A stretch of 64,000 nt of DNA from a virus (Duplodnaviria; Caudoviricetes), in IMG/VR virus record IMGVR_UViG_3300021255_000109, positions 64,001 to 128,000 of that record, one strand, 5' to 3'. Below, piece after piece: positions 1 through 15,402 of the stretch (position 1 is its first letter; every line of letters starts with the position of its first letter). The notes under the pieces were generated by a model. It saw nothing but the letters and a program-made list of their open reading frames with translations, was not told where the DNA came from and did no database searches. The position numbers and the translations under genes were made by a program.

Positions 1-470
1 ATGGCAAACTTCCTTATTAGCATTTCCTTGGTTTGTGCCAGGCGGCCAGCCTAACACCTAACAAGGATTATTCTCCCACTGGGAGCGTCTATTGCGGAAG
101 CGACAAGACACCGTCCTAACTTGAGAAATATATTTTGCGCTAACTACCCCCGACACCTTACGTTCGTAAGGTATCATTCTCTTGTCACCAAGAGAATGAT
201 TCATCTTCATCCTGGCTATCGTCAGGGTAGATATAGTCGACACCTAAGTGTGGTAGTTACCTCAGCACAATGGTATTTGCTCTGCACTGAGTTACACATT
301 TTTTCAAAGTTCAATAGGAATCAGTCAAAATCAGCATCGCCACGAGAAGGCTTCCTATATGATGCCATGCGGTTTTGAGGTTAACCGTAAACCTTGATAG
401 TGTGGCTCTCGCCCAAAGGAATACCCGGCCGCCGCACTCCACTCTTTGAATGATGAACTCTTCTAATCCT
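1..470 (-). ncRNA. large structured ncRNA candidate (possibly GOLLD/ROOL-like), may extend past window start
   Basis: No credible ORF. Successive hairpins, e.g. ATCATTCTCTTG-GTGA-CAAGAGAATGAT (GNRA loop on minus strand) and CCTTAC/GTAAGG. Lies downstream of tRNA-Gln. Confidence 0.5.
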
Positions 471-530
471 ACATCCTATCATATGTCTATTGGACTTACA
501 TACAATTTCTAACTGTAAAGCCGAGACAAA

Positions 531-603
531 CAGCCCCGGACAGAATCGAACTGTCACATTGCGGGTCAAAGCCGCATGCGCTCAACCATTACGCTACGGA
601 GCT
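531..603 (-). tRNA. trnQ: tRNA-Gln(TTG)
   Basis: Cloverleaf; anticodon arm TGCGG-CT TTG AC-CCGCA; T-loop TTCGATT. Confidence 0.9.
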
Positions 604-611
604 ATCTATTT

Positions 612-734
612 CAAGGCTGCTTACTTTTTGGAGTTATTAATCTTCCAATTGATTTACAATTGCTAAGCAAAAGACAGGACTCGAACCTGCAACGCATAAC
701 TTGGAATAAAGCTACTATTTGCTGTCACAGCCTT
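612..734 (-). ncRNA. skipping-rope-like element enclosing a circularly permuted tRNA (Gly TCC / Trp CCA ambiguous)
   Basis: AAGGCTG-TGA-CAGCAAAT ... CAGCCTTG; inside, T-arm and 3' acceptor precede 5' acceptor and D-arm. Confidence 0.7.
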
Positions 735-765
735 AAATATATTATAATGTTTAATTAGTTTTCAA

Positions 766-887
766 CAAGACACTTTAGAAAAATGATTATCAGTCATTCG
801 CGTCAACCATTGCGCCAATTTGCCTAAGGTGGCAAATATCGGATTTGAACCGATACTCTCTAAAAAGAGATTTGCTGTATGTGTCTT
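766..887 (-). ncRNA. skipping-rope-like element enclosing a circularly permuted tRNA-Ile(GAT)
   Basis: AAGACAC-ATA-CAGCAAAT ... GTGTCTTG; inside ATCGG-TTCAAAT-CCGAT, ATTTGCC-ACCTTA-GGCAAAT, D-arm, AATGA-CT GAT AA-TCATT. Confidence 0.8.
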
Positions 888-893
888 TTTTAT

Positions 894-1268
894 TTATTCT
901 TGAATACAATACTTTCTTACAAAATGACCATAAGACATACGATTACACATCTTATTTAACTCCTCAGTAGAATACTGACCTGCTACTAATTCATCAACAA
1001 GCGCCCAATAACAATCGACGTCGTCTCTATAGACGTCATCGTACATCTCTTCAATCTCATCTTCAGTCATATCGTCGTCGATATATTCTTTTGCCTCTTC
1101 ATCTAAAGCATTATAAATCTCAGCATAAGACTGAATAACATCAAAGGCTAAGCTAATAGCATTCTCTCTGGCTTCCTCTTCGTTGTCTGCATCAATTACT
1201 TCCATCTCATACATACCGTGTAAACCACCATACATCTGGTCACAGCCATAAACTACATATCTAGCCAT
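894..1268 (-). CDS. hypothetical acidic phage protein
   Basis: 124 aa ORF, AAAGGA RBS, upstream TTGATT/TATAAT promoter. Confidence 0.8.
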   Translation of the reverse strand: MARYVVYGCDQMYGGLHGMYEMEVIDADNEEEARENAISLAFDVIQSYAEIYNALDEEAKEYIDDDMTEDEIEEMYDDVYRDDVDCYWALVDELVAGQYSTEELNKMCNRMSYGHFVRKYCIQE

Positions 1269-1359
1269 TGATTATAATTTCCTTTCTTTTTTTATTTTAC
1301 ATAAATATTATACCAAATTTTTTCTAAAAAATCAATTTAAACTTTTTTATTTGTGATAG

Positions 1360-1434
1360 TCGGGGTGACAGGATTCGAACCTGCGGTCTCGTGATCCCAA
1401 ATCACGCGCCTTAACCAAACTGGGCCACACCCCG
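1360..1434 (-). tRNA. trnP: tRNA-Pro(TGG)
   Basis: Cloverleaf; CGTGA-TT TGG GA-TCACG. Confidence 0.92.
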
Positions 1435-1438
1435 TAAG

Positions 1439-1995
1439 TAGGAGAGATGGGAATCGAACCCATGACCTCAGGTTTGATTCCAAGATGTTATTCATTAATT
1501 ATTTTATTCACCACCTTTTCTAATTCATATTCAGTAGCAAATGTAATTCCTCTAATTTGTCCATTCTTAGGCGGAATAAATCTTAATCTTTTTATCCCAG
1601 AACTACAACATTCATCTACTGGAATTAAATAAGTTTTACCTTCATAAGAAGTCATAAAATAATCAATTTGTTCTTTTGTATAGGCATGTTTTACAAACTT
1701 TCCATTTCTCGTAGTTTTATTTGCGGTATTAAATTCTATATATCCGTTGTCTATATGTGAAGTATTAGCTGTTTTAACTTGAATTTTATAAAATTTATTA
1801 TTTATTTCAACTACGAAATCATAACGTTCACAATCTCCATATGGAGTTAAAACATTATAACCTAATTTTAAAAATGATAACATACATTCTACTTCTGTAA
1901 TATTACCTTTTTGTTTTGACATTAACATATTGTTAATAATCAATGAATAATTCTTTGAATCAGACCTGCACTCTAACCTTCTGAGCTACTCTCCT
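1439..1995 (-). tRNA. trnI: split tRNA, most likely Ile(GAT); exons about 1959-1995 and 1439-1475
   Basis: 5' half AGGAGAG..CAGGT-CTGAT and 3' half AA-ACCTG..TTCGATT..CTCTCCT-A flank a ~483-nt insert. Confidence 0.75.
1488..1943 (-). CDS. PD-(D/E)XK endonuclease inside the tRNA insert (group I intron-associated PD-(D/E)XK-like family)
   Basis: Motifs KGNITE...YDFVV...KIQVKT...IDYF; true start may be an ATG at about 1928 or 1922. Confidence 0.8.
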   Translation of the reverse strand: MIINNMLMSKQKGNITEVECMLSFLKLGYNVLTPYGDCERYDFVVEINNKFYKIQVKTANTSHIDNGYIEFNTANKTTRNGKFVKHAYTKEQIDYFMTSYEGKTYLIPVDECCSSGIKRLRFIPPKNGQIRGITFATEYELEKVVNKIINE

Positions 1996-2006
1996 ATATT
2001 TATATC

Positions 2007-2087
2007 CAAGGCACTTAAAGTGAGCACATTTGTATAAGTAAAAGTTATATAATTTGCATCCTTGTAAATATTTGCTGTATGTGCCTT
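2007..2087 (-). ncRNA. skipping-rope-like element (no tRNA cargo)
   Basis: AAGGCAC-ATA-CAGCAAAT...GTGCCTTG directly downstream of promoter at 2105-2142. Confidence 0.7.
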
Positions 2088-2139
2088 AAATTTCTTATTT
2101 CTTTATCTTACTAATTATATCAAAATTTTTCTAAAAAAT

Positions 2140-2265
2140 CAACTTGCGGGTACTTTCCGCGACAGCCGCTTAACCAATTCGACTTTCTTAGCTTTCACTA
2201 ATGAGAACCTCACGCATTGTCGGTCTTGTCCTCCCTATCGTTAGGCTTCCACTTGCCGCAAGTTG
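2140..2265 (-). ncRNA. structured RNA candidate closed by 10-bp stem
   Basis: CAACTTGCGG...CCGCAAGTTG terminal inverted repeat with internal hairpins. Confidence 0.45.
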
Positions 2266-2272
2266 ATTTTAG

Positions 2273-2391
2273 TGGGGGACAGAGGACTCGAACCTCCAAA
2301 CACCGGCTCCCTAAGCTTTGTAAAAATTGCTGACACGGTTTTTATTCAAGACCAGACATAACGGCGGCTTTTCCTATTTGCCTAATCCCCC
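2273..2391 (-). tRNA. Leu-like tRNA whose anticodon arm is interrupted by an inside-out skipping-rope element
   Basis: GGGGGAT/GTCCCCC acceptor, GGC/GCC D-arm, GGAGG-TTCGAGT-CCTCT T-arm; insert GGTCTTGA-ATAA-AAACC-GTGT-CAGCAATT then ..CT TAG GG.. Confidence 0.65.
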
Positions 2392-2394
2392 AAA

Positions 2395-2466
2395 TACCGG
2401 ATCTCGGATTCGAACCGAGAAAACAACCTTCGTAGGGTCGCAGTTTATCCATTAGCTTAATCCGGC
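2395..2466 (-). tRNA. trnR: tRNA-Arg(ACG)
   Basis: Cloverleaf; CGACC-CT ACG AA-GGTTG. Confidence 0.88.
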
Positions 2467-2658
2467 TTATGCGCGCTCGATTGGCGTCAAGCGCACGACT
2501 TCATATGCGCCAACATATGAAGGTTTTGGTTTAATATCGGGAAAACCACGACACGCCTCAAGAGCAATGCCAAAACCCGCAAGCACTTACCTCTTAATCC
2601 GTCTATTGCCTCGCTTCTCATCTTCGAGCATAAGCTACTACAATCGCTTTTAAGAGAA

Positions 2659-2730
2659 TATCCCAGAAAGGACTCGAACCTTCATCCAATCGCTTAGAAG
2701 GCGATTGCTCCTCCATTGAGCTACTGGGAC
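2659..2730 (-). tRNA. trnR: tRNA-Arg(TCT)
   Basis: Cloverleaf; ATCGC-CT TCT AA-GCGAT. Confidence 0.92.
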
Positions 2731-2912
2731 TCAATTTTTCTTTCCTTTTTTATCTTACATAAATATTATACCAAATTTTTTCCAAAAAAGCAAATCATTC
2801 TTTTTAACTGGGGGTCTTGATCGCGATGGGCTACCCCCAAGCCATGGTTTTCGGCTGGTTATCGTTGTTCACAGCTCCCGGCGAGGCTCTACGACGCTCC
2901 ACTGCCGCGGAG

Positions 2913-2985
<73 letters not shown>

Positions 2986-3085
2986 AAATGAGAGTATATC
3001 CACCGCCTCAACTCTCTATACCTGCCGGCTTTGCATCTGTGCGCACAGACCTCAGACATTAACCGATGGATTTCCAGTAGTTTAA

Positions 3086-4261
3086 TTAAATTAAGTATTT
3101 ATAAGCAAAGCTTGAACTGTAATAATTTTTAGCCTTATTAAACTCAATCTCTGCGATTTCAAAACTGTTTAAAAAAGCTTTAAGAGCATCTTTTAACTTC
3201 TTTTGTTCTTCGTTATCATCACTCAAATATTCATAATCATCATCCCAGCCAAGTTCAACCTTAGAAGGGTCAATATGATAACCATTTTCGTCAATGATAA
3301 TGTCACGAGTGTAAAATCTGACCTGAACATTATTGCAATAACGAGCAAACTCAGCAGGAAAAGCTTTCTTATCAAAATTCAGCCATTCATAATTATTTCG
3401 GTTATCAAACATATCAAGGTCTATATTCTGAGAACTTGTTGCAACTAAGCCATTTGTAAAAATAACTTTCATTGATAATACAAGATAACGCTCTCTCTCA
3501 ATATTCAAATCTAACATGGTCTCAGACAAATCATATCCCTGATTTAGTTCAAATGCAATAGCCCTAAGTACATCATATGTAAATGAAGACATACCACTAA
3601 GAGCTACAATTTTATCAATATACTGACGAGCATCTCCAACTAGATTATCATTCATATACTCTCTTACTTCGTCTCCTGTTGGAGTGCTAAGCATAAAATG
3701 ATAATGAAATCTTCCTGGTCTATTCAATAGGAAAGGACTTAATCCTCTGGTATCATTACAAGTAATAATATATAATTTCTTACCATCATCAATACCATCG
3801 AATAATGATAAAAGATTATCTTGCGGTGAATAATCACTGTCTTTATCAGTTTTAAAAGTTTTTTCGAACTCATCAAAAAGCACAATACATTCTTGATGAA
3901 TAGAAGAAATAAAATCTTCAATACCAGGCGCAGGAGTATCAACAATTAAAAGCGGTAAATTTGATTTCTTACCAGCTTCTGCTAATAAACGTGCAAACAT
4001 TGACTTACCAACACCTTTTGGTCCTGATAAGATAACACCCATATTACGATTGAAATGGCTAAAAGTATTCATAACCTTATTAACCTTTTCAGCATACGGT
4101 CCATAAACTTTTTCTCTTGTAACGAGGTCATTATGCTTAGATAGGTAATAACCTGATAACTTACTAAATTCTACTCGATATGTATCTGCGGGGAGCGACT
4201 TATATGTTTGCACATCCTCGCCATACACCATAAACTTATCGCCTGCATTAACTATATTCAT
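3086..4261 (-). CDS. AAA+ ATPase
   Basis: Walker A GPKGVGKS, Walker B VLFDEFEK, SRH LLNRPGRF. Confidence 0.9.
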   Translation of the reverse strand: MNIVNAGDKFMVYGEDVQTYKSLPADTYRVEFSKLSGYYLSKHNDLVTREKVYGPYAEKVNKVMNTFSHFNRNMGVILSGPKGVGKSMFARLLAEAGKKSNLPLLIVDTPAPGIEDFISSIHQECIVLFDEFEKTFKTDKDSDYSPQDNLLSLFDGIDDGKKLYIITCNDTRGLSPFLLNRPGRFHYHFMLSTPTGDEVREYMNDNLVGDARQYIDKIVALSGMSSFTYDVLRAIAFELNQGYDLSETMLDLNIERERYLVLSMKVIFTNGLVATSSQNIDLDMFDNRNNYEWLNFDKKAFPAEFARYCNNVQVRFYTRDIIIDENGYHIDPSKVELGWDDDYEYLSDDNEEQKKLKDALKAFLNSFEIAEIEFNKAKNYYSSSFAYKYLI

Positions 4262-6148: not shown

Positions 6149-6242
6149 TAAAAAATATTGTAGGTTACAACAACCTGTCAAAGTACCTTAAAGGCTTCAT
6201 AACAAAATAGTACAATTTCTACAGTGAGTAACCTACAATATT

Positions 6243-6295
6243 AACCCCTCTGCGTTTACACTGGCTTGGGAACAGTCCATTGGGCCGCATTAGTT
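6243..6295 (-). ncRNA. twister ribozyme (type P1)
   Basis: Minus strand AACTAATGCGGCCCAATGGACTGTTCCCAAGCCAGTGTAAACGCAGAGGGGTT: U^AA site, P2 TGCG/CGCA, P4 ACTG/CAGT with loop TTCCCAAGC, 3' GAGGG pseudoknot partner. Confidence 0.8.
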
Positions 6296-6504
6296 TTTAA
6301 TTTTAAGTAAGGAGTAAAAAGAAGATTTATTGTCCCCGTATTATTTGACAATAAATAGAGATAAAAAACTCTCCTTAACATACAGTTTTGTTGTTTCTAA
6401 ATCTGGCACTATATAGAAAGGATGGCACCTTACAGCCTAACCGCCAATTATTTTTGATTAGGTTTTCCAGTAGTAAGGCTTAATGTATAGTGTCAATTTA
6501 AAAA

Positions 6505-6627
6505 CAAGTCGCTTCGTTTTTTGGTGTACAAAATGGGACTCGAACCCACAATTTTTAAATCCTAAATTTAACGCCATTCCTATTTGGCTATTCGTACGAT
6601 TAACGTAACATTTGCTGTATGCGACTT
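6505..6627 (-). ncRNA. skipping-rope-like element enclosing an intact tRNA
   Basis: AAGTCGC-ATA-CAGCAAAT ... GCGACTTG. Confidence 0.75.
6522..6597 (-). tRNA. trnL: tRNA-Leu(TAG), short variable loop, encoded CCA
   Basis: GTACGAA/TTTGTAC-ACCA; TTAAA-TT TAG GA-TTTAA. Confidence 0.75.
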
Positions 6628-6925: not shown

Positions 6926-6991
6926 CAAGACGAATTATAACAAGTTTTGTTTACCGACACAAATTGTTTTAAAAATTGCAGAAATCGTCTT
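6926..6991 (-). ncRNA. skipping-rope-like element
   Basis: AAGACGA-TTT-CTGCAATT...TCGTCTTG; first element after promoter 6995-7037. Confidence 0.65.
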
Positions 6992-7038
6992 TTTTATTTT
7001 CTATAAATATTATATCAAATATTTTATAAAAAATCAAA

Positions 7039-7114
7039 CCAACCATATGGGAATCGAACCCATCATCCTTCTGCCTTGCGTGACAGTGCTTGCCTCCTTG
7101 CATGCCCATGATTA
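7039..7114 (-). tRNA. degenerate tRNA-Cys(GCA)-like
   Basis: Good T-arm ATGGG-TTCGATT-CCCAT and acceptor; anticodon loop only 6 nt. Confidence 0.5.
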
Positions 7115-7381
7115 GAGGGATCTGCGCATATCCCTGTTTTGGTTTGCTTCAGTAGGGTTTCCTCCCCTCCCACTCCATTTTTATACCGAGCTGAGAAAAC
7201 ACGGTCGAGAACTTCTCGTAATAAGGTACCATCATTTGTTACAACTGTCAATCTTTCATATGGTGCTATCTACTTAACTGGCAGCCCGCATTGTACTTTT
7301 GCGTAACAATTTATAACTCCCAAATTGTTTCTAACGTCTGCTTATGTCCAACGGATAGCCAGCCGTGCTTGAAGCAGCAAA

Positions 7382-7456
7382 TACCTGAAAATGGATTTGA
7401 ACCATTGACCTTTTCCGTATGAAGGAATTGCTCTAACCGAACTGAGCTACTCAGGT
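7382..7456 (-). tRNA. tRNA-Met/Ile2(CAT)
   Basis: ATTCC-TT CAT AC-GGAAA; full cloverleaf. Confidence 0.88.
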
Positions 7457-7543
7457 AGAAAGGTTAGGTAGTTTTTTGACTTGCCCAGGTCGACACAAAC
7501 AAAGAAAGGAAGATACATTATTATGAATTTATAAAAATTCAAA

Positions 7544-7616
7544 TGACTCTTGCCCGATTCGAACGGACGACTCCTGCCTGAGAAACAGGTGACTTAGGCC
7601 TCTTGTCGAAAGAGCC
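7544..7616 (-). tRNA. trnE: tRNA-Glu(CTC)
   Basis: CCTGT-TT CTC AG-GCAGG. Confidence 0.88.
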
Positions 7617-7753
7617 AAATTTTTATTTAATATTCCGGAAACTCCTTTACTTCATCATCAATGATTTCAATCTCTTCGATGTAAACCTCTTCACACTGAA
7701 CTTCGCAATCAAATGAATCCCAGTAAAAAATTTCCTTCATTTTTAACTCCTTT

Positions 7754-7819
7754 CAAGACATTTTAGTTTTTCCCAAATTGGATGGCTGAGATAACAAACT
7801 TGTTTGCTGCAAATGTCTT
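7754..7819 (-). ncRNA. skipping-rope-like element
   Basis: AAGACATTT-G-CAGCAAAC...AAATGTCTTG; first element after promoter 7825-7866. Confidence 0.65.
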
Positions 7820-7885
7820 TTTTCATTTTCTATAAATATTATATCAAATATTTTATAAAAAATCAATTAAGCATTTTTTTATTCG

Positions 7886-7959
7886 TACTCAAGATGAGAT
7901 TCGAACTCATAAAACCTTGGGTTTGAGCCAAGTACGTTTACCAATTACGTCACTTGAGC
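7886..7959 (-). tRNA. trnL: tRNA-Leu(CAA), short variable loop
   Basis: CTTGG-CT CAA AC-CCAAG. Confidence 0.85.
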
Positions 7960-7963
7960 AGAG

Positions 7964-8035
7964 TGGACACGGTGGGATTCGAACCCAATCTTCCTGATTG
8001 CAAGTCAAGCGCTCTCCCAATTGAGCTACCGGCCC
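7964..8035 (-). tRNA. trnA: tRNA-Ala(TGC)
   Basis: CTTGA-CT TGC AA-TCAGG; G3.U70. Confidence 0.85.
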
Positions 8036-8131
8036 ATAGTGGCAACTTCACTATTGGTCTGGATGGTTGCCGCACCCTAATGTCTTTCCATTAAGTCAAT
8101 TATCCTAAATTATTTGGCGATAATTACCTAA

Positions 8132-8206
8132 GCAGGTTGGCAGGATTTAAACCTGCGACCTCCGGGTCCCAAACCAAGCGCTCTGGCCAAACTGAGCTAC
8201 ATCCTG
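8132..8206 (-). tRNA. trnP: tRNA-Pro(TGG), second copy, variant T-loop
   Basis: CTTGG-TT TGG GA-CCCGG; T-loop TTTAAAT. Confidence 0.75.
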
Positions 8207-8237
8207 CTATAAATATATTTGGCAATAATTGCCGAAG

Positions 8238-8310
8238 CGGGGACAGGAGGACTCGAACCTACAACAACCCGGTTAACAGCCGGGTGCTCTACCAATTGAG
8301 CTATGCCCCC
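8238..8310 (-). tRNA. trnN: tRNA-Asn(GTT)
   Basis: CCCGG-CT GTT AA-CCGGG. Confidence 0.92.
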
Positions 8311-8365
8311 AAATTGACCTACCCTGGTACGCATTGTTAAGAGGCGTGATAGGTACTGATATAAT

Positions 8366-8512
8366 CTAGACACGTAGTTCCTTTTTTTAACGCTATTGCG
8401 CACATCTTTTCAAATTAGAACTATTAAACGTCGATGCTATTTTACAGGGACACGTCCCTATATTCTTCTATCCTAATCTTGAGTTAAAATAGAATTGCTG
8501 TGCCCGTGTCTA
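8366..8512 (-). ncRNA. skipping-rope-like element with long loop
   Basis: TAGACACG-GGCA-CAGCAATT...CGTGTCTAG. Confidence 0.6.
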
Positions 8513-8560
8513 TGTGATAGTTTAATTTACCGCCGCCGAACTCTATCAAACTAGGCATAA

Positions 8561-8633
8561 TGCGCCAAATGGGATTCGAACCCACGGTCCTACGATTAAA
8601 AGTCGTATGCTTTACCATCTAAGCTATTGGCGC
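8561..8633 (-). tRNA. trnK: tRNA-Lys(TTT)
   Basis: TACGA-CT TTT AA-TCGTA. Confidence 0.95.
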
Positions 8634-8974
8634 TAATTTTTATGAACCTCTTTATCAAACTAACGTTTTCGCTTCATAACTTTATCTCCTTTTTTCATTT
8701 TCTATATATATTATACTAAATTTTTTCTAAAAAATCAATAGATCAGAAAAATGACTAGATCAACTTCAAACTAGTCATGCCCGACCGTTTGGCTGCAAAC
8801 AACAGGTCTCGGGCTTATCAACGCAACAGACTTGCAGAATCTGACGTGGGAAGCTTTTACCCCATATGCACCTCAGCTCTGTTCTTCCCCACTGTACTAG
8901 GGGTGTCCACCTATTACATATGTTTTTCTTAGGGCTTGCCGCGCTTATCGCGAGTGGAGGCGGATCTCCACTAA

Positions 8975-9047
8975 TACTCAATATAGGACTTGAACCTATG
9001 ACCCTCCGTTTGTAGGACGGACGCTCTCCCAACTGAGCTAATTGAGT
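8975..9047 (-). tRNA. trnV: tRNA-Val(TAC)
   Basis: TCCGT-CC TAC AA-ACGGA (C33). Confidence 0.85.
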
Positions 9048-9100
9048 AAAATGCCCTAATTTCTTATTACGATGAACACGCGGGCCGCCAAATCTCGAAA

Positions 9101-9172
9101 TATGCTATGCGGGATTCGAACCCTATGCTCCTTCGATTGAGAATCGAACGCTTTACCTGTTAAGCATAGCAT
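9101..9172 (-). tRNA. atypical tRNA with CTC anticodon
   Basis: TTCGA-TT CTC AA-TCGAA; shortened acceptor-D junction. Confidence 0.55.
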
Positions 9173-9490
9173 AGAATTAAAATGCGCTAAAAATGAAACT
9201 GCCAAACTCTTTTCAACGCTTTGAAAAAACCATATCGCCAAGATTTTTCCAGGATAGTTTTTCAAGGAGTTCTCCCGTCGCGATTTTGGTGGGAGCTTAT
9301 TACCTGGATTCCAACCAGAACCTCTCTTGCAGTAAAATGTGCCTCCAGGAGGGCTGTTAAGAAACGAGCCTGGATATTTGGACATAAATAGCAGTTTAGG
9401 TTTCCACGACGAACTCTGCCAAACTTGGAGAACGAAACCCATTTCATTGCAAGCAAATCCATGGTAAAAACACTTAAGTTTTTGTTCCAA

Positions 9491-9563
9491 TGACTCCTAC
9501 TGGATTCGAACCAATGACTCTAGCGTGAGAGGCTAGCGGCTTAGACCACTTGCCGAAGGAGCC
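9491..9563 (-). tRNA. trnE: tRNA-Glu(CTC)
   Basis: CTAGC-CT CTC AC-GCTAG. Confidence 0.92.
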
Positions 9564-9567
9564 TTAA

Positions 9568-9640
9568 TAGCCCGTAGGAGAATCGAACTCCTGACTCAAC
9601 CGTGAAAGGGTTGCGGCTTAAACCACTTGCCGAACGGGCC
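9568..9640 (-). tRNA. trnE: tRNA-Glu(TTC)
   Basis: CAACC-CT TTC AC-GGTTG. Confidence 0.92.
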
Positions 9641-9991
9641 TTTACATCGCTTTTGATAACAGAAGGGAGCGATAACCCCACCTGGTCTTACAACAGTTCA
9701 GTTTAAAGTCCTAACTGGGATGGCAGCAAACTGTAAAGGACTATTAAAGTTATATAAAGTTTTATCTTACTTTGTAAGATTCAACAGTAATCTCACCAAA
9801 CCGGTCTCTAATGAATTCAACTTCTGCATAAGATTTCACAAAAGTCATGTGCTTCTTGTGATGGTCATCGACATAATATACTACATACATCATGTGCGCT
9901 TTCTCCTTCTTAAATTGTGAAATTGATTTTTAGTGACTTTTCATTTTCTATAAATATTATACCAAATTTTTTACAAAAAATCAAACGTGCA

Positions 9992-10282
9992 TCATTTTCG
10001 TTTGCAACATTTTAACCAGTAGCGATAGAACTCCTTCAGCGTAGGATACCGCTTTCTGAGATACTCATTATCTCCTCGCTCCCACTCTGCTTTAGCTTCA
10101 TCCCATGTCCAACGAACGATATAATCATGAATATCATAGGATTCATACACCTTTTTATAGGCGCCACCATTTGGCATGTCTTCTGTATTTCTGACTTTCT
10201 TGTTGGCAAACTTTTTTGATTCTTTTGTGGTACCAGGATTGCCATCAGTATAAACTGGACATCTCTTGTAAGATCGACTCAT
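9992..10282 (-). CDS. hypothetical basic phage protein
   Basis: 96 aa, AGGAGG RBS. Confidence 0.8.
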   Translation of the reverse strand: MSRSYKRCPVYTDGNPGTTKESKKFANKKVRNTEDMPNGGAYKKVYESYDIHDYIVRWTWDEAKAEWERGDNEYLRKRYPTLKEFYRYWLKCCKRK

Positions 10283-10312
10283 ACTTTATCCCTCCTGTTT
10301 ATTTTATAGAAG

Positions 10313-10387
10313 CAACCATGACGGGACTCGAACCCGCGACCTCCGAAGTGACAGTCCGGCACTCTGAACCAGCTGAGCTACATGGCT
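10313..10387 (-). tRNA. trnD: tRNA-Asp(GTC)
   Basis: CCGGA-CT GTC AC-TTCGG. Confidence 0.92.
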
Positions 10388-10711
10388 ATATAAAGGCTAT
10401 TTAAAATACTTTCGTACGCTCTGCCCAAAGCTCATATGTCTCCAAACAAAGAGTCTACTCATATTTAAGGCGCCACCCTTTACCCGTTTTCCATTGAGCA
10501 TATTTCCCTCGTAAGGACGCATACACTCACACGCACCCATGGATTGTCAGTTTTTATCCCTATTGTAACAAGCAGGTAAAACTTCCCAGAAACGCTCTCG
10601 ACGACGCGACATCTTTATTCTTATTGAATTAGTGAGGAGCATCGCATACAATCTCTAAGTCACCAGGACCAGAAGTTTAAAGTCTTATGTTCCCTGGATG
10701 TAAAGACTCAA

Positions 10712-10786
10712 TACTCTAGAAGGGATTCGAACCCATACTGTCCTGATCCTAAGTCAGGTGCCTCCTGCCAATTGGGCTACTAGAGC
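10712..10786 (-). tRNA. trnL: tRNA-Leu(TAG), short variable loop
   Basis: CCTGA-CT TAG GA-TCAGG. Confidence 0.85.
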
Positions 10787-11145
10787 ATATTTCAGATAGA
10801 TGGCCGCCACGCCTTTAGCCATGCTCGGATATCTATCATACCCTATTCTCATTCTATCTGAGATGCGATAAAAGTTTAACCTATATCACTTTCAAAGATA
10901 CTTGGCCTAGACCGGGCGCCAAGAACCTGACCACTCTTGCTTAACTCCCCCGATAGTGCTCGCGGCTGTATTCTCGACAGCTGAGATTTACATTGGCTGA
11001 GGTAAATCAACTCACATGTTTGGTTATTGTTCCAATATCAACTACTTACAGGGCCTTCTTACCCAAGCCAGAGAATAGGATTTACGTGTCGTTGCTAGGT
11101 TCTCCACGTGGTTAGTGGGATATGGCTGCTCTACCTATTCTTTTT

Positions 11146-11282
11146 CAAGACGGTTACGACATTTTATGATATATTCCTCGTAAGGCGATTATGAAAAAGC
11201 CTGCATCAACACATAATCCTTTTAAATTGACAGCACCACGCCATATCTGAATTTTTGAATTTATTTGCAGTTCAATCGTCTT
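11146..11282 (-). ncRNA. skipping-rope-like element with long loop
   Basis: AAGACGATT-GAA-CTGCAAAT...AACCGTCTTG; first element after promoter 11285-11328. Confidence 0.6.
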
Positions 11283-11796
11283 TTTTATCTTACATAAATA
11301 TTATAACAAATTTTTTCCAAAAAATCAATTTGGCGATTTTTTAATTGATAGCTATAAATACAGCATCATTAGTACCACCATCAGTTATCTCTATAATATC
11401 AAAATCGTTTGGATAATCTGAATCAAAGTTGCCCTGGATATATATTTCTGCGTCAAGGTTAGGAGCTTCTGTCAATAACTTTTGAATTACTTCTCGAACT
11501 GTCATTTTTTCTCCTTTCTTTATCTTACATAAATATTATACCAAATTTTTTACAAAAAATCAAAAGTGCAATTTTTTACTTGAAGTAGCATTGAGAGCAT
11601 CTACTAGTGTTCTTCAAGATTAGTGTTTGGTTTCTCTTCAGAAAAGGAGTGCTTGTTGATATTCGGTCTTTCAGCTCTTCATCTCCGTTACCTTCATCAA
11701 GATATATTTTAAAAGGCTACTTGAGTTTCCTTTCTTTATCTTATATAAATATTATAACAAAAATTTTCCAAAAAATCAATAATGATCTTTTTCTTT

Positions 11797-12057
11797 TTAT
11801 TCAGGAGTATCCTCAGGATCAGGTGTCGCAGTAGTATGAATATAACATTGATTCATAATTAGCCTACCGTCACAAGTTAATAATGTTGCACTGTGTGATG
11901 GTAATGTACTAATTGCCGCAGAGGCTAAAACCTAATGATATTTACTTTCAGCTTGTAATCTCGCTATTGTAGGATTTTCGTCATATGCAGAATGTACAAT
12001 ATTACCATATGTACCATCTTCATATTTTTGAATTTCAATAATATAATATTGGTTCAT
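11797..12057 (-). CDS. small protein downstream of fibre-like genes (TAG read through)
   Basis: MNQYYIIEIQKY...ESKYH*VLASAAIS...; AGGAG RBS; ends TAA. Confidence 0.75.
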
Positions 12058-12075
12058 ATTTAATCTCCTTTATAT

Positions 12076-13428
12076 TTAATTATCATATCCAGCAATAAAC
12101 TCCGCATTACCAATAGATGGATTAAAAGTTTTATTTACTAAATCATAAAATCCTGCTTTTTTATCAGTATTGCGTACCACTGGAATATAATATCTAATTA
12201 ATTCATTCTGTTTTTTAATTTTAAAATAATAAAATTTATGGCTTGGTGCGCTAGTATCACCAACACCAGAACCAACACGATTTTTTCCAATTGTAATATT
12301 TAATGCACTCATTTCAGATTCATCTGTTGCAGTAGTAGCAGTGTGTGATTCACCATTATAAGTTGCAGTTGCGCTACCATATTCCATATGTATATCTACT
12401 GGTGCATTAATAAGATGACCTAAACCACCAGCATTTAAGCCTGCACTAGCACCAGCTCGTCTATTATTTAATGTTATCGTATAACGACCATTATCAGAAC
12501 TTCCATGAATAAGTCTCCAACAAGCTTTTGATTCGCCATCATAATTAGCAAAAACATAAGCATATTTTTTATATTCTACTGGTTGTACACGTAAATCAAT
12601 TTGAATTGTAACATCATTACCAGCTACGCCAGTATCAATAAACGATGCTGTACCAACTGTTTGAATATAATCACAGAGTGAATAACCAATTAAATCAGTA
12701 TAAGTCCAATATGTTAAAGATAAATCAATTGCACTAGCACTACTAATAGTATTATTACCACGAACAGTTTTTAATTGTTCTGGTGTTAAAGTATAATAAA
12801 CTGGTGTTGCTGTCGTATCAATAAACTCAATAGGATTAGCATTAAGATAAACTCCTATAGATTCTTTAGTATCACCAACTAAATCAGTTGAAAGTCTTTG
12901 TACAGTTGATTTAGGATAATTCTCGTTTACACGTATACCATTTAAAGTAGCATCAAGAAAAGGCTCTGGATGCAAATAATTACAACATTTAATAGCATTA
13001 TGAGCTAATGAAGTATCTCTATCATCGCCATCCCACCAAAGCCAAAACTAAGTATAACCATTATTAGTTGCAATTGATGTAATACGTGATGTAACATCTT
13101 CTGGCTACGTTCTTAATATATATGGACAAATTAACTATCCAGTTGCTAAGTCAAGACTTCCGCCATAAATTAATGTAGGAAACTAAGTAACTATATTAGT
13201 ATTATTAAAAATTGTAGTAATTTGATTCCAGCCTGAAAAAGTTCTTACATTATCTGGACTTGCTTCTCCAGAACCATGCCATATAGGATCAAAATTAATT
13301 ATACAATGTTTAACTTTTGCGACCAAATCAGCATCAAAACTCATTGATGTATTATAATTAATAGTTCTTAAATGGGGAGTATTTAACAATATCTATCTGC
13401 GTATTAATTCCATATTTAAACTACCCAT
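12076..13428 (-). CDS. putative virion/receptor-binding protein (code 15)
   Basis: Single 450-codon frame once internal TAGs are read; C-terminal DYIQTVGTASFIDTG...GFYDLVNKTF beta-rich domain. Confidence 0.65.
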
Positions 13429-15029
13429 GACATCACCGCCCCATATACTCCATTTAAAATAGAAATTTCATAAGTCCTATTAGTTTCAATTTCAAACCAT
13501 TCTGGCATTTTTACTGTATTTGGCAAAGTTAATACAGTAGGAGTAGAACCAGAAGTAAACAATATGTTACAAATACCAGTAGCAGATGGAGTAAAAGATA
13601 ATGTTAATACTGTGCCACAAATATAACGGTAGTTTCCTTGTGCGGTAATTACTGGATCTGTGCCTGTAACTGTCTATTCAGTTATTCCGCTACCACTTGA
13701 TGATGATCCACTATTAACCATCTAATCTACATATCCTTTAGTAGCAACATCCATATTATTAGTAGGTCCAATACCAACAGTTAATTTACCTGCTAATACT
13801 TCATTACCATTCCAATCTAAAGTTCTTGCATTAGAACGATTTATAATAGTATTATCTTGCGGATCTTGTATTCCATTACCAACAATTTCAATATAAGTTC
13901 CTTTATTATTCGCCTCTGCTGTTGTAGCATTTGTTTCTATTACATTATATTCTCCAAAAACAAACTAAGAGCGTTTTGCCGCTTCAGTTCCATAGCCTTG
14001 ACTATGAGAAAATCTTCCGCTAGCAACAGTTTGAATACCTTCAGCATGTGCGCCAAGACCTGTAGCTTGACTTTGGCCTCCTTCTGCATGCGTATAATAA
14101 CCACTAGCAATAGTATATACCCCTTCTGCGTGTGCAGATTGACCACTCGCTGTTGTATGTTCTCCTTCTGCATGAGATGCTAAACCGCTAGCTTCAGAAT
14201 AATCACCTTCTGCATGAGATGCTGCGCCACTTGCTGTTGTCTAATAACCACTTGTAAATGAATTTTCTCCTTCTGCAATAGTTAATTCTCCAATCGCAAT
14301 AGCTCCATATTCTCTTGCGACATTATTAAGTCCAATAGCTATTGCATTATCTTCAGAAACTGTATTACCTTCACCAATAGCAACAGTAGCTACTCTTGAT
14401 TCTAATTTATTCGCCACACCAATAGAATAGCCAAAATATTTGCTTGTTTCACCATCTCTAGCTATTTGTAAAGGAGTATCTGTATATCCATATATTAAAG
14501 ATTTTGGCAATTCAACTTTTGTATTATTTATCTATTCTACTAAAAACTTATATGTGCCAGCTTCACTTGTTAAAATATCAAGCGTTCCATCATCATCTGT
14601 CTCAACAATTATAAATGGACAATTATCAGTTTTATATGGTATACTAGCGTCAATGTCAATATATAGATTTAAGTTCCCTAAATAAGAATATAATCGCGTT
14701 GAACACCATGTCTTACCATCTAAAATATACTGTTGTGATTCATTCGTTGTAGCATTAGTAAATGTGACTCGAAATTGATAATAGGTTGGCCTTTGAGTTT
14801 TAGTAACAGTTGCTTTTGGACTTTTATATCCTTCTGTTACCGCAGTTGTTACTGTAAATTCTCCTCCATAAACTGTAGTATATGTACTATTAATAATACC
14901 TGCATTACCTATTGCGCTTTTATCAACTTTTATATTATCAATAATATTTACAGCAGTTTCTAAAGTATCCAACTAATCTTTTTTTAATCGAGTTATACCA
15001 TTTGCATCTAAAAATTTTTTAGTTGGCAT
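13416..15029 (-). CDS. putative tail fibre/adhesin with YadA-head (Hep_Hag)-like repeats (code 15)
   Basis: 537-codon frame with TAG read through; AIAIG and SHAEG repeats; NARTLDWNGNE motif. Confidence 0.7.
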
Positions 15030-15091
15030 AAAACACATTTCCTCCTTTTTGTCATATAAAAAAGAGAGGATAATTTCCTCTCTTCAAAATC

Positions 15092-15226
15092 AAATTGAGT
15101 GCTTTTGGCGGGAGCAGTCTCGTTTGCGCTACGACACCCAGTATTCATACTTTCCGCTTCGCTTCTCACGGAGTTATGAATCCATATGGCAGAACTTCTA
15201 CTGCACTCCCCAAAAACACTCAATTT
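15092..15226 (-). ncRNA. structured RNA candidate 3' of tRNA-Trp
   Basis: Long closing stem AATTGAGTGTTTTTGG/CCAAAAGCACTCAATT with multibranch interior. Confidence 0.5.
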
Positions 15227-15238
15227 TTCACTAACTAA

Positions 15239-15309
15239 CAAGAGCGCAAGGACTCGAACCCTGACCTGGAGTTTTGGAGACTCATATGCTACCATTACAC
15301 TACGCCCTT
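15239..15309 (-). tRNA. trnW: tRNA-Trp(CCA)
   Basis: TGAGT-CT CCA AA-ACTCC. Confidence 0.9.
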
Positions 15310-15314
15310 ATATA

Positions 15315-15402
15315 CAAGACGCCGACCTGATTTGTTTCTTTTATTCAGGATTTAATTAATTAATTAATTTTGGCGAAACTAGTAATTGCCGTACAGCGTC
15401 TC
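15315..15402 (-). ncRNA. skipping-rope-like element (variant CGGCAATT)
   Basis: GAGACGC-TGTA-CGGCAATT...GCGTCTTG; first element after promoter 15405-15451. Confidence 0.55.

What the first reader, a model, noticed from the sequence alone, without database searches (positions are those of the whole stretch)
2273..2391. Normally ordered tRNA with the module inserted inside-out in its anticodon arm
Acceptor, D and T arms are intact, but the anticodon arm contains GGTCTTGA-ATAA-AAACC-GTGT-CAGCAATT, i.e. the module's 3' strand before its 5' strand, followed by CT TAG GG. This is the circular permutation of the 612-734 arrangement: the same composite fold opened at a different point. That argues the tRNA+module chimera, perhaps via a circular intermediate, is the functional unit.
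Basis: partly seen in the sequence, partly recalled or inferred. Interest (0 to 1): 0.82.

Follow-up and report, generated by a model that had tools for sequence, protein, structure and literature searches.

The report
tRNA-shaped RNA with Ro60-type handle
A phage gene shaped like a complete tRNA carries, as a side branch of its anticodon stem, the same short RNA "handle" found on about ten other small RNAs of this phage and always travelling with a Ro60-like ring protein, so it is most likely a tRNA-shaped partner RNA of that protein and not a broken tRNA or an ordinary intron.

Summary
Minus strand 2391-2273 is a 119-nt tRNA cloverleaf with intact acceptor, D and T arms. A 45-nt insert sits between nucleotides 29 and 30 of the anticodon stem. 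The insert is a 7-bp hairpin followed by an 11-nt CAGCAA motif. This is the circular permutation of a stem-plus-motif module that occurs about ten more times in this window and in many large phages.

The same rotated module interrupts tRNA-Asn, -Thr, -Pro and -Ile look-alikes in other phages at the same stem position, with covarying hairpin pairs.

In nine orthologues of this gene the anticodon stem keeps pairing across the insert through compensatory changes. The anticodon loop meanwhile drifts in sequence and length.

The module co-occurs with a DUF2828/DUF7788 protein, which this phage encodes. Its predicted fold matches Ro60. In several phages the interrupted tRNA lies directly beside that gene.

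Best reading (0.65): a tRNA-shaped Y-RNA analogue whose side branch docks the Ro60-like protein. An intron removed by an unknown enzyme is not excluded (0.15). A circular intermediate has no support.

The scan has noted this system before on other DNA. I found it in neither Rfam nor the papers searched.

The parts
2273..2391 (-). whole tRNA-shaped gene, 119 nt, from acceptor 5' end (2391) to discriminator A (2273)
   Evidence: ARAGORN with introns allowed: tRNA 1-119 with a 45-nt insert
2385..2391 (-). acceptor stem, 5' strand; pairs with 2274-2280
   Evidence: 98-100% paired with both-sided changes in alignments A2 and A3
2366..2382 (-). D arm (3-bp stem, loop with GG)
   Evidence: invariant in the nine orthologues
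2362..2364 (-). lower anticodon stem, 5' strand (tRNA nt 27-29); pairs with 2303-2305 across the insert
   Evidence: 100% paired in 9 orthologues, with both-sided changes in 5 and 3 of them
2355..2361 (-). 7-nt A/U-rich linker, start of the 45-nt insert
   Evidence: 7-9 nt in all stem-inserted copies
2336..2354 (-). handle hairpin: 3'-strand-like 7-mer (2348-2354), 5-nt loop (2343-2347), 5'-strand-like 7-mer (2336-2342)
   Evidence: 92% of cells paired, two pairs with both-sided changes in 4-5 of 9 sequences
2325..2335 (-). 11-nt single-stranded CAGCAA motif directly 3' of the handle's 5' strand
   Evidence: C, GCAA invariant in alignment A2; same motif in the other copies
2317..2324 (-). 8-nt linker, end of the insert
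2306..2316 (-). upper anticodon stem (2 bp) with 7-nt loop UUAGGGA
   Evidence: loop varies among orthologues
2281..2297 (-). T arm
   Evidence: 97.8% paired, 4 of 5 pairs with both-sided changes
612..887 (-). two ordinary copies of the module: 734-613 around a T-arm/closed-acceptor/D-arm domain, and 887-767 around a permuted tRNA-Ile look-alike
2008..2087 (-). ordinary copy of the module with a hairpin cargo
6506..6627 (-). ordinary copy of the module around a whole CCA-ending tRNA (UAG anticodon)
6927..15402 (-). five further module copies with variant motifs: 6991-6927, 7819-7755, 8512-8367, about 11281-11147, 15402-15316

Best explanation
The gene makes a stable tRNA-shaped RNA. It is cut out of a polycistronic tRNA transcript by RNase P and 3' trimming. 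Its 45-nt insert stays in place as a side branch of the anticodon stem. The branch (a 7-bp hairpin plus the single-stranded CAGCAA motif) is the docking handle for the phage's Ro60-like ring protein, a DUF2828/DUF7788 protein with a TROVE-like repeat ring and a vWA domain.

The RNA is therefore an analogue of the tRNA-mimicking Y RNAs (YrlA) of bacterial Ro60. The handle holds the protein, and the L-shaped tRNA body with its exposed anticodon hairpin is what the particle presents to tRNA-binding factors. Given the neighbouring genes, these factors probably act in RNA repair or counter-defence.

Shown here:
- the cloverleaf;
- the rotated module and its covariation;
- recurrence at one stem position in several tRNA types;
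- co-occurrence and adjacency with the protein gene;
- the Ro60-like fold.

Inferred: binding, retention of the insert in the mature RNA, and the downstream role.
For: (1) Module family. A stem plus 11-nt motif plus 29-127 nt of cargo plus the closing strand occurs in over 50 distinct copies in IMG/VR phages, with freely covarying stems. About 10 copies lie in this window.

(2) Rotated form. The same order (3' strand, loop, 5' strand, motif) interrupts tRNA look-alikes of Asn, Thr, Pro and Ile type in other phages, after nt 28 or 29 of the anticodon stem. At least 15 of 47 records chosen for an ordinary module carry such a gene. The hairpin is 92% paired, with compensatory changes.

(3) Nine orthologues. 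All lie in the same place next to tRNA-Arg(ACG) where flanks are known. Acceptor, T and lower anticodon stems are 98-100% paired with both-sided changes. The anticodon loop reads seven different ways and is 7, 8 or 9 nt long. That does not fit a decoder.

(4) Redundancy. The interrupted Pro(UGG) copies in L013 and L034 sit beside normal tRNA-Pro(UGG) genes.

(5) Copies that cannot be spliced. In some the handle replaces the whole anticodon loop, so excision cannot yield a tRNA. These lie about 240 nt upstream of the DUF2828 gene.

(6) Protein. A DUF2828+DUF7788 ORF of 518 aa is in this genome. The 12 best PDB matches to its model are all Ro60/TROVE structures, followed by vWA domains.

(7) Co-occurrence. 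DUF2828 is present in 38 of 44 records with a closed module, and in 15 of 15 of those at least 90% complete. It is present in 5 of 42 records with only the chance 18-mer, and 4 of those 5 turned out to hold G.U-closed real modules.

(8) Adjacency. Interrupted tRNAs lie 200-400 nt upstream of the protein gene in G002, G003 and G035.
Against: - No binding or expression data exist.
- In this genome the protein gene is about 7.7 kb from the element, not adjacent.
- Cutting out the insert leaves a flawless 5-bp anticodon stem and 7-nt loop, as an intron would.
- An RNA-ligase-like ORF, three metallophosphoesterases and a cyclic-phosphate-processing receiver domain lie near the protein gene, so cut-and-rejoin chemistry is available.
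- The proposed fold scores -21.1 kcal/mol against an MFE of -34.1, and the whole sequence folds no better than shuffles (z -0.54).
- Co-occurrence may partly reflect common descent of the phages.
- The structure model is of moderate confidence (pLDDT 70, TM about 0.5).
Confidence: 0.65

Rival explanations
1. The insert is a new kind of tRNA intron. A phage or host endonuclease recognises the handle, cuts at both ends of the 45 nt, and a ligase joins the exons into a working 74-nt tRNA. The same chemistry on ordinary (outside) modules would circularise their cargo and so mature the permuted tRNA genes.
For: - Virtual excision gives a canonical tRNA here, and in the Asn, Thr, Pro and Ile copies of other phages.
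- ARAGORN in intron mode accepts it.
- A whole permuted tRNA look-alike sits inside an ordinary module at 887-767.
- An RNA-ligase-like ORF, phosphoesterases and a cREC domain are encoded near the Ro60-like gene.
- A twister-like ribozyme lies in the same tRNA array.
Against: - No splicing endonuclease, RtcB or group I core is present.
- The position (28-30, inside the stem) is not a known intron site.
- The anticodon loop is not conserved among orthologues.
- The interrupted copies are redundant with normal tRNAs.
- Some copies have no anticodon loop to restore.
- Most modules enclose hairpins that make no sense as circles.
Confidence: 0.15
2. The module is a small self-cleaving ribozyme or nuclease processing signal that cuts the polycistronic tRNA transcript. 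Its presence inside this tRNA is a by-product.
For: Ordinary modules usually end 4-10 nt before the next tRNA and often start right after a tRNA 3' end. A twister-like ribozyme is present nearby.
Against: - Only a 7-bp stem and about 8 conserved unpaired bases are constant, which is little for a catalytic core.
- No Rfam ribozyme matches any copy at E up to 10.
- A cleavage signal inside a conserved cloverleaf would destroy it.
- This reading does not explain the link to the Ro60-like gene.
Confidence: 0.08
3. It is a dead tRNA gene, disrupted by insertion or recombination of a repeated element and now decaying.
For: The formal anticodon AGG is unusual for bacteria. Loops of 8 and 9 nt occur in orthologues. 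Standard tRNA finders miss it.
Against: All stems, including the one spanning the insert, are kept by compensatory changes in nine orthologues from different samples. The D and T loops keep their tertiary-contact bases. The same architecture recurs in unrelated tRNA types at the same position.
Confidence: 0.05

Closest known systems
YrlA-type Y RNAs with bacterial and phage Ro60/Rsr (Rfam RF02553; Chen et al. 2014, PMC4201824; Thermus phage phiLo Ro60 with Yrl1/Yrl2, PMC12135203)
   Same: A protein-binding stem with a one-sided conserved bulge is joined to a tRNA-like domain through the anticodon-stem position. It is encoded in genomes that carry a ring-shaped TROVE/vWA protein, often right beside that gene. 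Several such RNAs occur per genome.
   Different: - The protein is DUF2828/DUF7788. It is not detected by the TROVE Pfam model and is related to Ro60 only by predicted fold.
- The motif is CAGCAA, not the GNCGAA/CGAA motif.
- The element does not match RF02553 at all, and the 612-734 copy reaches only 26 of 69 bits.
- Here the tRNA is in normal order with free acceptor ends and a full anticodon hairpin, and the handle is a closed side branch. I did not find this topology described for Y RNAs.
Class I RNAs of dictyostelid social amoebae (Kjellin et al. 2021, PMC7919456)
   Same: A short stem joins the 5' and 3' ends, a conserved unpaired 11-nt motif lies directly after the 5' strand, and the rest is variable. 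The paper's invariant T, C, C, A, A at motif positions 3, 6, 9, 10, 11 fit the phage motif. The full amoeba motif as I recall it also contains ACAGCAA; this is from memory.
   Different: They are eukaryotic, 42-65 nt, and no tRNA parts are reported. The known direct binder is an RRM protein. I did not test the link to DUF2828 in amoebae; it is a lead from an earlier scan note.
Interrupted and permuted tRNA genes of archaea and the red alga Cyanidioschyzon (bulge-helix-bulge introns; reviewed in PMC4090602)
   Same: Short inserts lie at non-canonical positions in otherwise perfect tRNAs, and permuted tRNA genes occur in the same genome.
   Different: There is no bulge-helix-bulge motif and no splicing endonuclease or RtcB in the phage. 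The insert carries a conserved protein-handle-like module that also occurs outside tRNAs.

Membership tests
Y RNA / YrlA (RF02553) | Reaches the Rfam gathering score of the family | tested here: not met
   No match on 1940-2400 at E up to 10. The permuted sister copy 614-714 scores 26.4 bits against 69.
Y RNA / YrlA (RF02553) | Genome encodes a Ro60 (TROVE + vWA) protein | tested here: inconclusive
   The Pfam TROVE model is absent. A DUF2828+DUF7788 protein is present, and the 12 best PDB matches to its model are all Ro60.
Y RNA / YrlA (RF02553) | 5'-strand Ro-binding motif GNCGAA(N)G / CGAA in a bulged stem | tested here: not met
   The bulged stem is present, but the motif is NNNCAGCAAWU. 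The known motif is as stated in PMC4201824 and PMC12135203.
Y RNA / YrlA (RF02553) | tRNA-like domain with T arm, D arm and acceptor | tested here: met
Y RNA / YrlA (RF02553) | Physical binding to the Ro60-type protein | not testable with these tools
   Needs pull-down or gel shift.
Decoding tRNA | Cloverleaf with conserved D/T loop bases and paired acceptor | tested here: met
Decoding tRNA | Uninterrupted 5-bp anticodon stem and 7-nt loop; called by standard tRNA finders | tested here: not met
   A 45-nt insert lies between nt 29 and 30. The gene is missed by ARAGORN in default mode and by the Rfam tRNA model.
Decoding tRNA | Anticodon constant among orthologues | tested here: not met
   Nine orthologues show seven different loop sequences of 7, 8 or 9 nt.
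tRNA intron (group I or bulge-helix-bulge type) | Ribozyme core, or bulge-helix-bulge motif with a splicing endonuclease and ligase | tested here: not met
   A 45-nt insert with no Rfam intron match. No tRNA_int_endo and no RtcB. Only a sub-threshold RNA-ligase-like ORF.
tRNA intron (group I or bulge-helix-bulge type) | Insert absent from the mature RNA | not testable with these tools
   Needs RNA from infected cells.
Phage CAGCAA-handle RNAs linked to DUF2828 (uncatalogued) | 7-bp stem of the AAGNCNN/NNGNCUU type, with the 11-nt motif directly 3' of the 5' strand | tested here: met
   Present in rotated order with one A.C mismatch, which is U-A in orthologues L299 and L300.
Phage CAGCAA-handle RNAs linked to DUF2828 (uncatalogued) | DUF2828 gene in the same genome | tested here: met
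   family-wide co-occurrence

The most novel reading that the evidence does not exclude
The handle is the recognition element of a protein-assisted cut-and-rejoin system of large phages. Placed inside a tRNA it acts as an intron. Placed around a cargo it makes circles that mature permuted tRNA genes. The Ro60-like ring would hold the RNA, and the nearby ligase-like and phosphoesterase genes would do the end chemistry. That would be a bacterial-virus counterpart of archaeal tRNA splicing.
Probability: 0.1. Interest if true: 0.9.

Novelty: new variant of a known kind. Interest (0 to 1): 0.68.

Why it matters
Ro60 and its Y RNAs are a conserved RNA-surveillance particle whose bacterial and viral roles are still unclear. 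Four points follow from this finding.

- A very large protein family of unknown function gains a likely RNA partner.
- That partner can be built onto whole tRNAs in at least three topologies: around them, around permuted ones, and as a side branch inside the anticodon stem.
- A normally ordered tRNA with free acceptor ends and an exposed, fast-changing anticodon loop on a protein handle suggests bait or substrate presentation to tRNA-directed enzymes. Anticodon nucleases of host defence and repair enzymes are candidates. This can be tested directly in phage-host pairs.
- These genes are missed by standard tRNA finders or risk being annotated as intron-containing tRNAs, so the finding also matters for annotation.

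Tried and rejected
- Rfam at permissive thresholds on 1-3200, 605-900 and 1940-2400 gave no ribozyme, intron or Y RNA match on the element.
- Single-sequence folding does not recover the cloverleaf or the handle. The MFE uses A/U-rich pairings that are not conserved in orthologues, so I set it aside in favour of comparative evidence.
- BLAST of the region against GenBank phages found only ordinary tRNA similarity.
- The exact-pattern scan for the handle hairpin of this gene found one relative in IMG/VR.
- A search for an uninterrupted (empty-site) version of this tRNA found only other tRNAs that share its D arm. One close relative has an odd 6-8-nt loop. There was no clean empty site.
- A DNA-level repeat or promoter reading was rejected. 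The stems covary, the motif is strand-specific, and all copies are co-oriented with the tRNAs.
- Literature searches for permuted phage tRNAs, DUF2828 and phage TROVE/Y RNA found no description of this module.

Full report
**Where the window lies.** The window is bases 64,001-128,000 of a 180,778-bp virus record with direct terminal repeats. Its first 16 kb hold a minus-strand array of 24 tRNA genes. It also holds a ROOL RNA, a group I intron and an abiF motif.

**The observation.** On the minus strand, 2391-2273 reads as a 119-nt cloverleaf:
- a 7-bp acceptor stem;
- a D arm with the usual GG;
- a 5-nt variable loop;
- a T arm with a UUCGAGU loop;
- discriminator A, no encoded CCA.

It starts 3 nt after tRNA-Arg(ACG), so it is part of a polycistronic tRNA transcript. 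Three bases of anticodon stem follow the D arm. Then comes a 45-nt insert: a 7-nt A/U-rich linker, a 7-mer, a 5-nt loop, a complementary 7-mer (6 of 7 pairs), the 11-nt motif with CAGCAA, and an 8-nt linker. After the insert, two more stem pairs close a 7-nt loop, and the 3' strand of the anticodon stem follows without a break.

Default ARAGORN and the Rfam tRNA model miss the gene. Only the reading of the loop as CU-UAG-GG is not the best parse.

**The module is a family.** The same 7-bp stem with the motif directly after its 5' strand occurs in ordinary orientation at 734-613, 887-767, 2087-2008 and 6627-6506. Variant-motif copies lie at 6991-6927, 7819-7755, 8512-8367, about 11281-11147 and 15402-15316. 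One more copy lies 3 kb before the window.

The cargo between motif and closing strand varies:
- a plain hairpin;
- a T-arm/closed-acceptor/D-arm domain, which gives a weak YrlA match of 26 bits;
- a whole permuted tRNA look-alike;
- a whole CCA-ending tRNA.

An 18-mer scan of IMG/VR, filtered for an exactly complementary closing strand, gave over 50 distinct copies. Their cargo is 29-127 nt and their stem sequences differ freely while staying complementary. This is an RNA-level structure, not a DNA repeat.

**The rotated form recurs.** I searched 49 phage records for closing strand, short loop, opening strand and motif in that order. This gave 36 matches, against 0 for the reversed control pattern. 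After filtering for complementarity, the real ones sit inside tRNA-shaped genes:
- two Asn(GUU) types;
- Thr(UGU);
- two Pro(UGG) types;
- Ile(GAU);
- two class II types;
- a type in which the handle replaces the whole anticodon loop.

In the stem-inserted copies the insert always follows nt 28 or 29. It starts with a 7-9-nt A/U-rich linker and ends 5-8 nt after the motif. Virtual excision restores a perfect 5-bp stem and 7-nt loop.

In an alignment of nine such genes the hairpin is 92% paired. Its two variable pairs change on both sides in 4 and 5 sequences. No shuffle reached the observed covariation, and slid controls fall to about 50% pairing.

**Orthologues of this gene.** BLAST and pattern scans found eight further distinct orthologues in viral and metagenome contigs. 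Where flanks are known they lie next to tRNA-Arg(ACG).

Acceptor, T and lower anticodon stems are 98-100% paired. The two variable pairs of the lower anticodon stem, which forms across the insert, change on both sides in 5 and 3 of 9 sequences. The A.C mismatch of the window's handle is U-A in two orthologues.

In contrast, the anticodon loop reads seven different ways. The anticodon triplets in the 7-nt loops are AGG, GAG, UAG and UGG, and the other loops are 8 or 9 nt long. A decoder would not behave so. In L013 and L034 the interrupted Pro(UGG) genes also coexist with ordinary tRNA-Pro(UGG) genes.

**The likely partner.**
- The genome has no Pfam TROVE protein. It does have a 518-aa DUF2828+DUF7788 ORF 5.4 kb before the window.
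- A model built from 26 homologues (pLDDT 70) has Ro60/TROVE structures as its 12 best PDB matches. These include a Thermus phage Ro60 and Deinococcus Rsr. vWA/MIDAS domains follow.
- The gene is present in 38 of 44 records with a closed module, and in 15 of 15 of those at least 90% complete. It is present in 5 of 42 records that only share the 18-mer. Four of those five turned out to have G.U-closed real modules.
- In G002, G003 and G035 an interrupted tRNA lies 200-400 nt upstream of the gene. In five related records the loop-replacing type lies about 240 nt upstream and an ordinary module lies just downstream. Y RNA genes lie beside rsr in the same way (PMC4201824).
- Near the gene in this phage are an RNA-ligase-like ORF (below threshold), an RNase T-type exonuclease, three metallophosphoesterases and a cyclic-phosphate-processing receiver domain.

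**Mechanism.** I conclude that the element is a tRNA-shaped analogue of a Y RNA. The side branch docks the Ro60-like ring, and the tRNA body and anticodon hairpin are displayed.
- Shown: the architecture, its conservation, and the genomic link to the protein.
- Inferred: binding, retention of the insert, and a role in RNA repair or counter-defence.
- Speculation only: that the fast-changing anticodon loop reflects bait for tRNA-directed nucleases.

**Rivals.**
- An intron is the main rival, because excision would give a flawless tRNA and ligase-like genes are present. Against it: there is no endonuclease, RtcB or ribozyme core; the loops drift; the copies are redundant; and some relatives cannot be spliced into a tRNA.
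- A processing ribozyme does not explain a conserved position inside a cloverleaf.
- A pseudogene does not explain the compensatory changes.

**Compared with what is known.** Closest are the YrlA-type Y RNAs with Ro60, including phage examples (PMC4201824, PMC12135203, PMC7824862). This RNA differs in four ways:
- the protein family;
- the motif (CAGCAA, not CGAA);
- failure to match RF02553;
- topology, with normal tRNA order and the handle as a closed branch.

The handle's layout also matches the Class I RNAs of dictyostelids: a stem joining the ends, an 11-nt motif after the 5' strand, and conserved positions that fit (PMC7919456).

Earlier notes of this scan report the same protein-handle pairing in over 200 other genomes, and several tRNAs with the rotated handle. 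My tests agree with their reading. I found no Rfam family or paper describing it.

Noticed in passing
window 1440-2005 (-): A tRNA (Ile GAU type by eye) is split by an insert of about 480 nt that is almost filled by a 146-aa ORF (1490-1930). The insert ends can pair, and there is no room for a group I core.
   Followed up: no
window 2130-2270 (-): A structured RNA of about 140 nt lies directly after the element. It is closed by a 12-bp stem and a U-tract terminator, has no Rfam match, and keeps the same place after the orthologue in L035/L274 (75% identity across element plus this RNA).
   Followed up: partly
window 6242-6296 (-): Twister-P1 ribozyme match at 47.7 bits (E 1e-9 in a 421-nt search; below the gathering score of 67.2), upstream of tRNA-Ser in the same array.
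   Followed up: partly
window 1-315 (-): 5' half of a ROOL RNA (149 bits), cut by the window start and lying beside the tRNA array.
   Followed up: no
window 52743-52985 (+): Complete group I intron match (106 bits).
   Followed up: no
window 8317-8353 (-): abiF RNA motif, just above its gathering score (39.1 against 37 bits), between tRNAs.
   Followed up: no
window 2100-2142 (-) and many other phages: A promoter-like block (TTGA, then about 17 nt, then TATAAT) right after the terminator recurs dozens of times in related phage records (query positions 339-381).
   Followed up: no
L288:15228-15316 (-) = G000 61228-61316: An 89-nt tRNA with a CUA anticodon (a possible amber suppressor; ARAGORN labels it Pyl). 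ARAGORN also calls a tmRNA at L288:16709-17008.
   Followed up: no
window 2470-2655 and 2780-2910 (-): G+C-rich, ORF-free stretches between tRNA genes that look like further structured RNAs. No Rfam match at E up to 5.
   Followed up: no
L293:50-125 (-): An uninterrupted relative of this tRNA family (same D arm, variable loop and T arm) with an abnormal anticodon loop. ARAGORN reports a two-base anticodon.
   Followed up: partly
G023:49642-51404: In this 99%-complete relative the DUF2828 matches fall in two separate ORFs (148 and 414 aa) about 1 kb apart. The gene may be split or interrupted.
   Followed up: no
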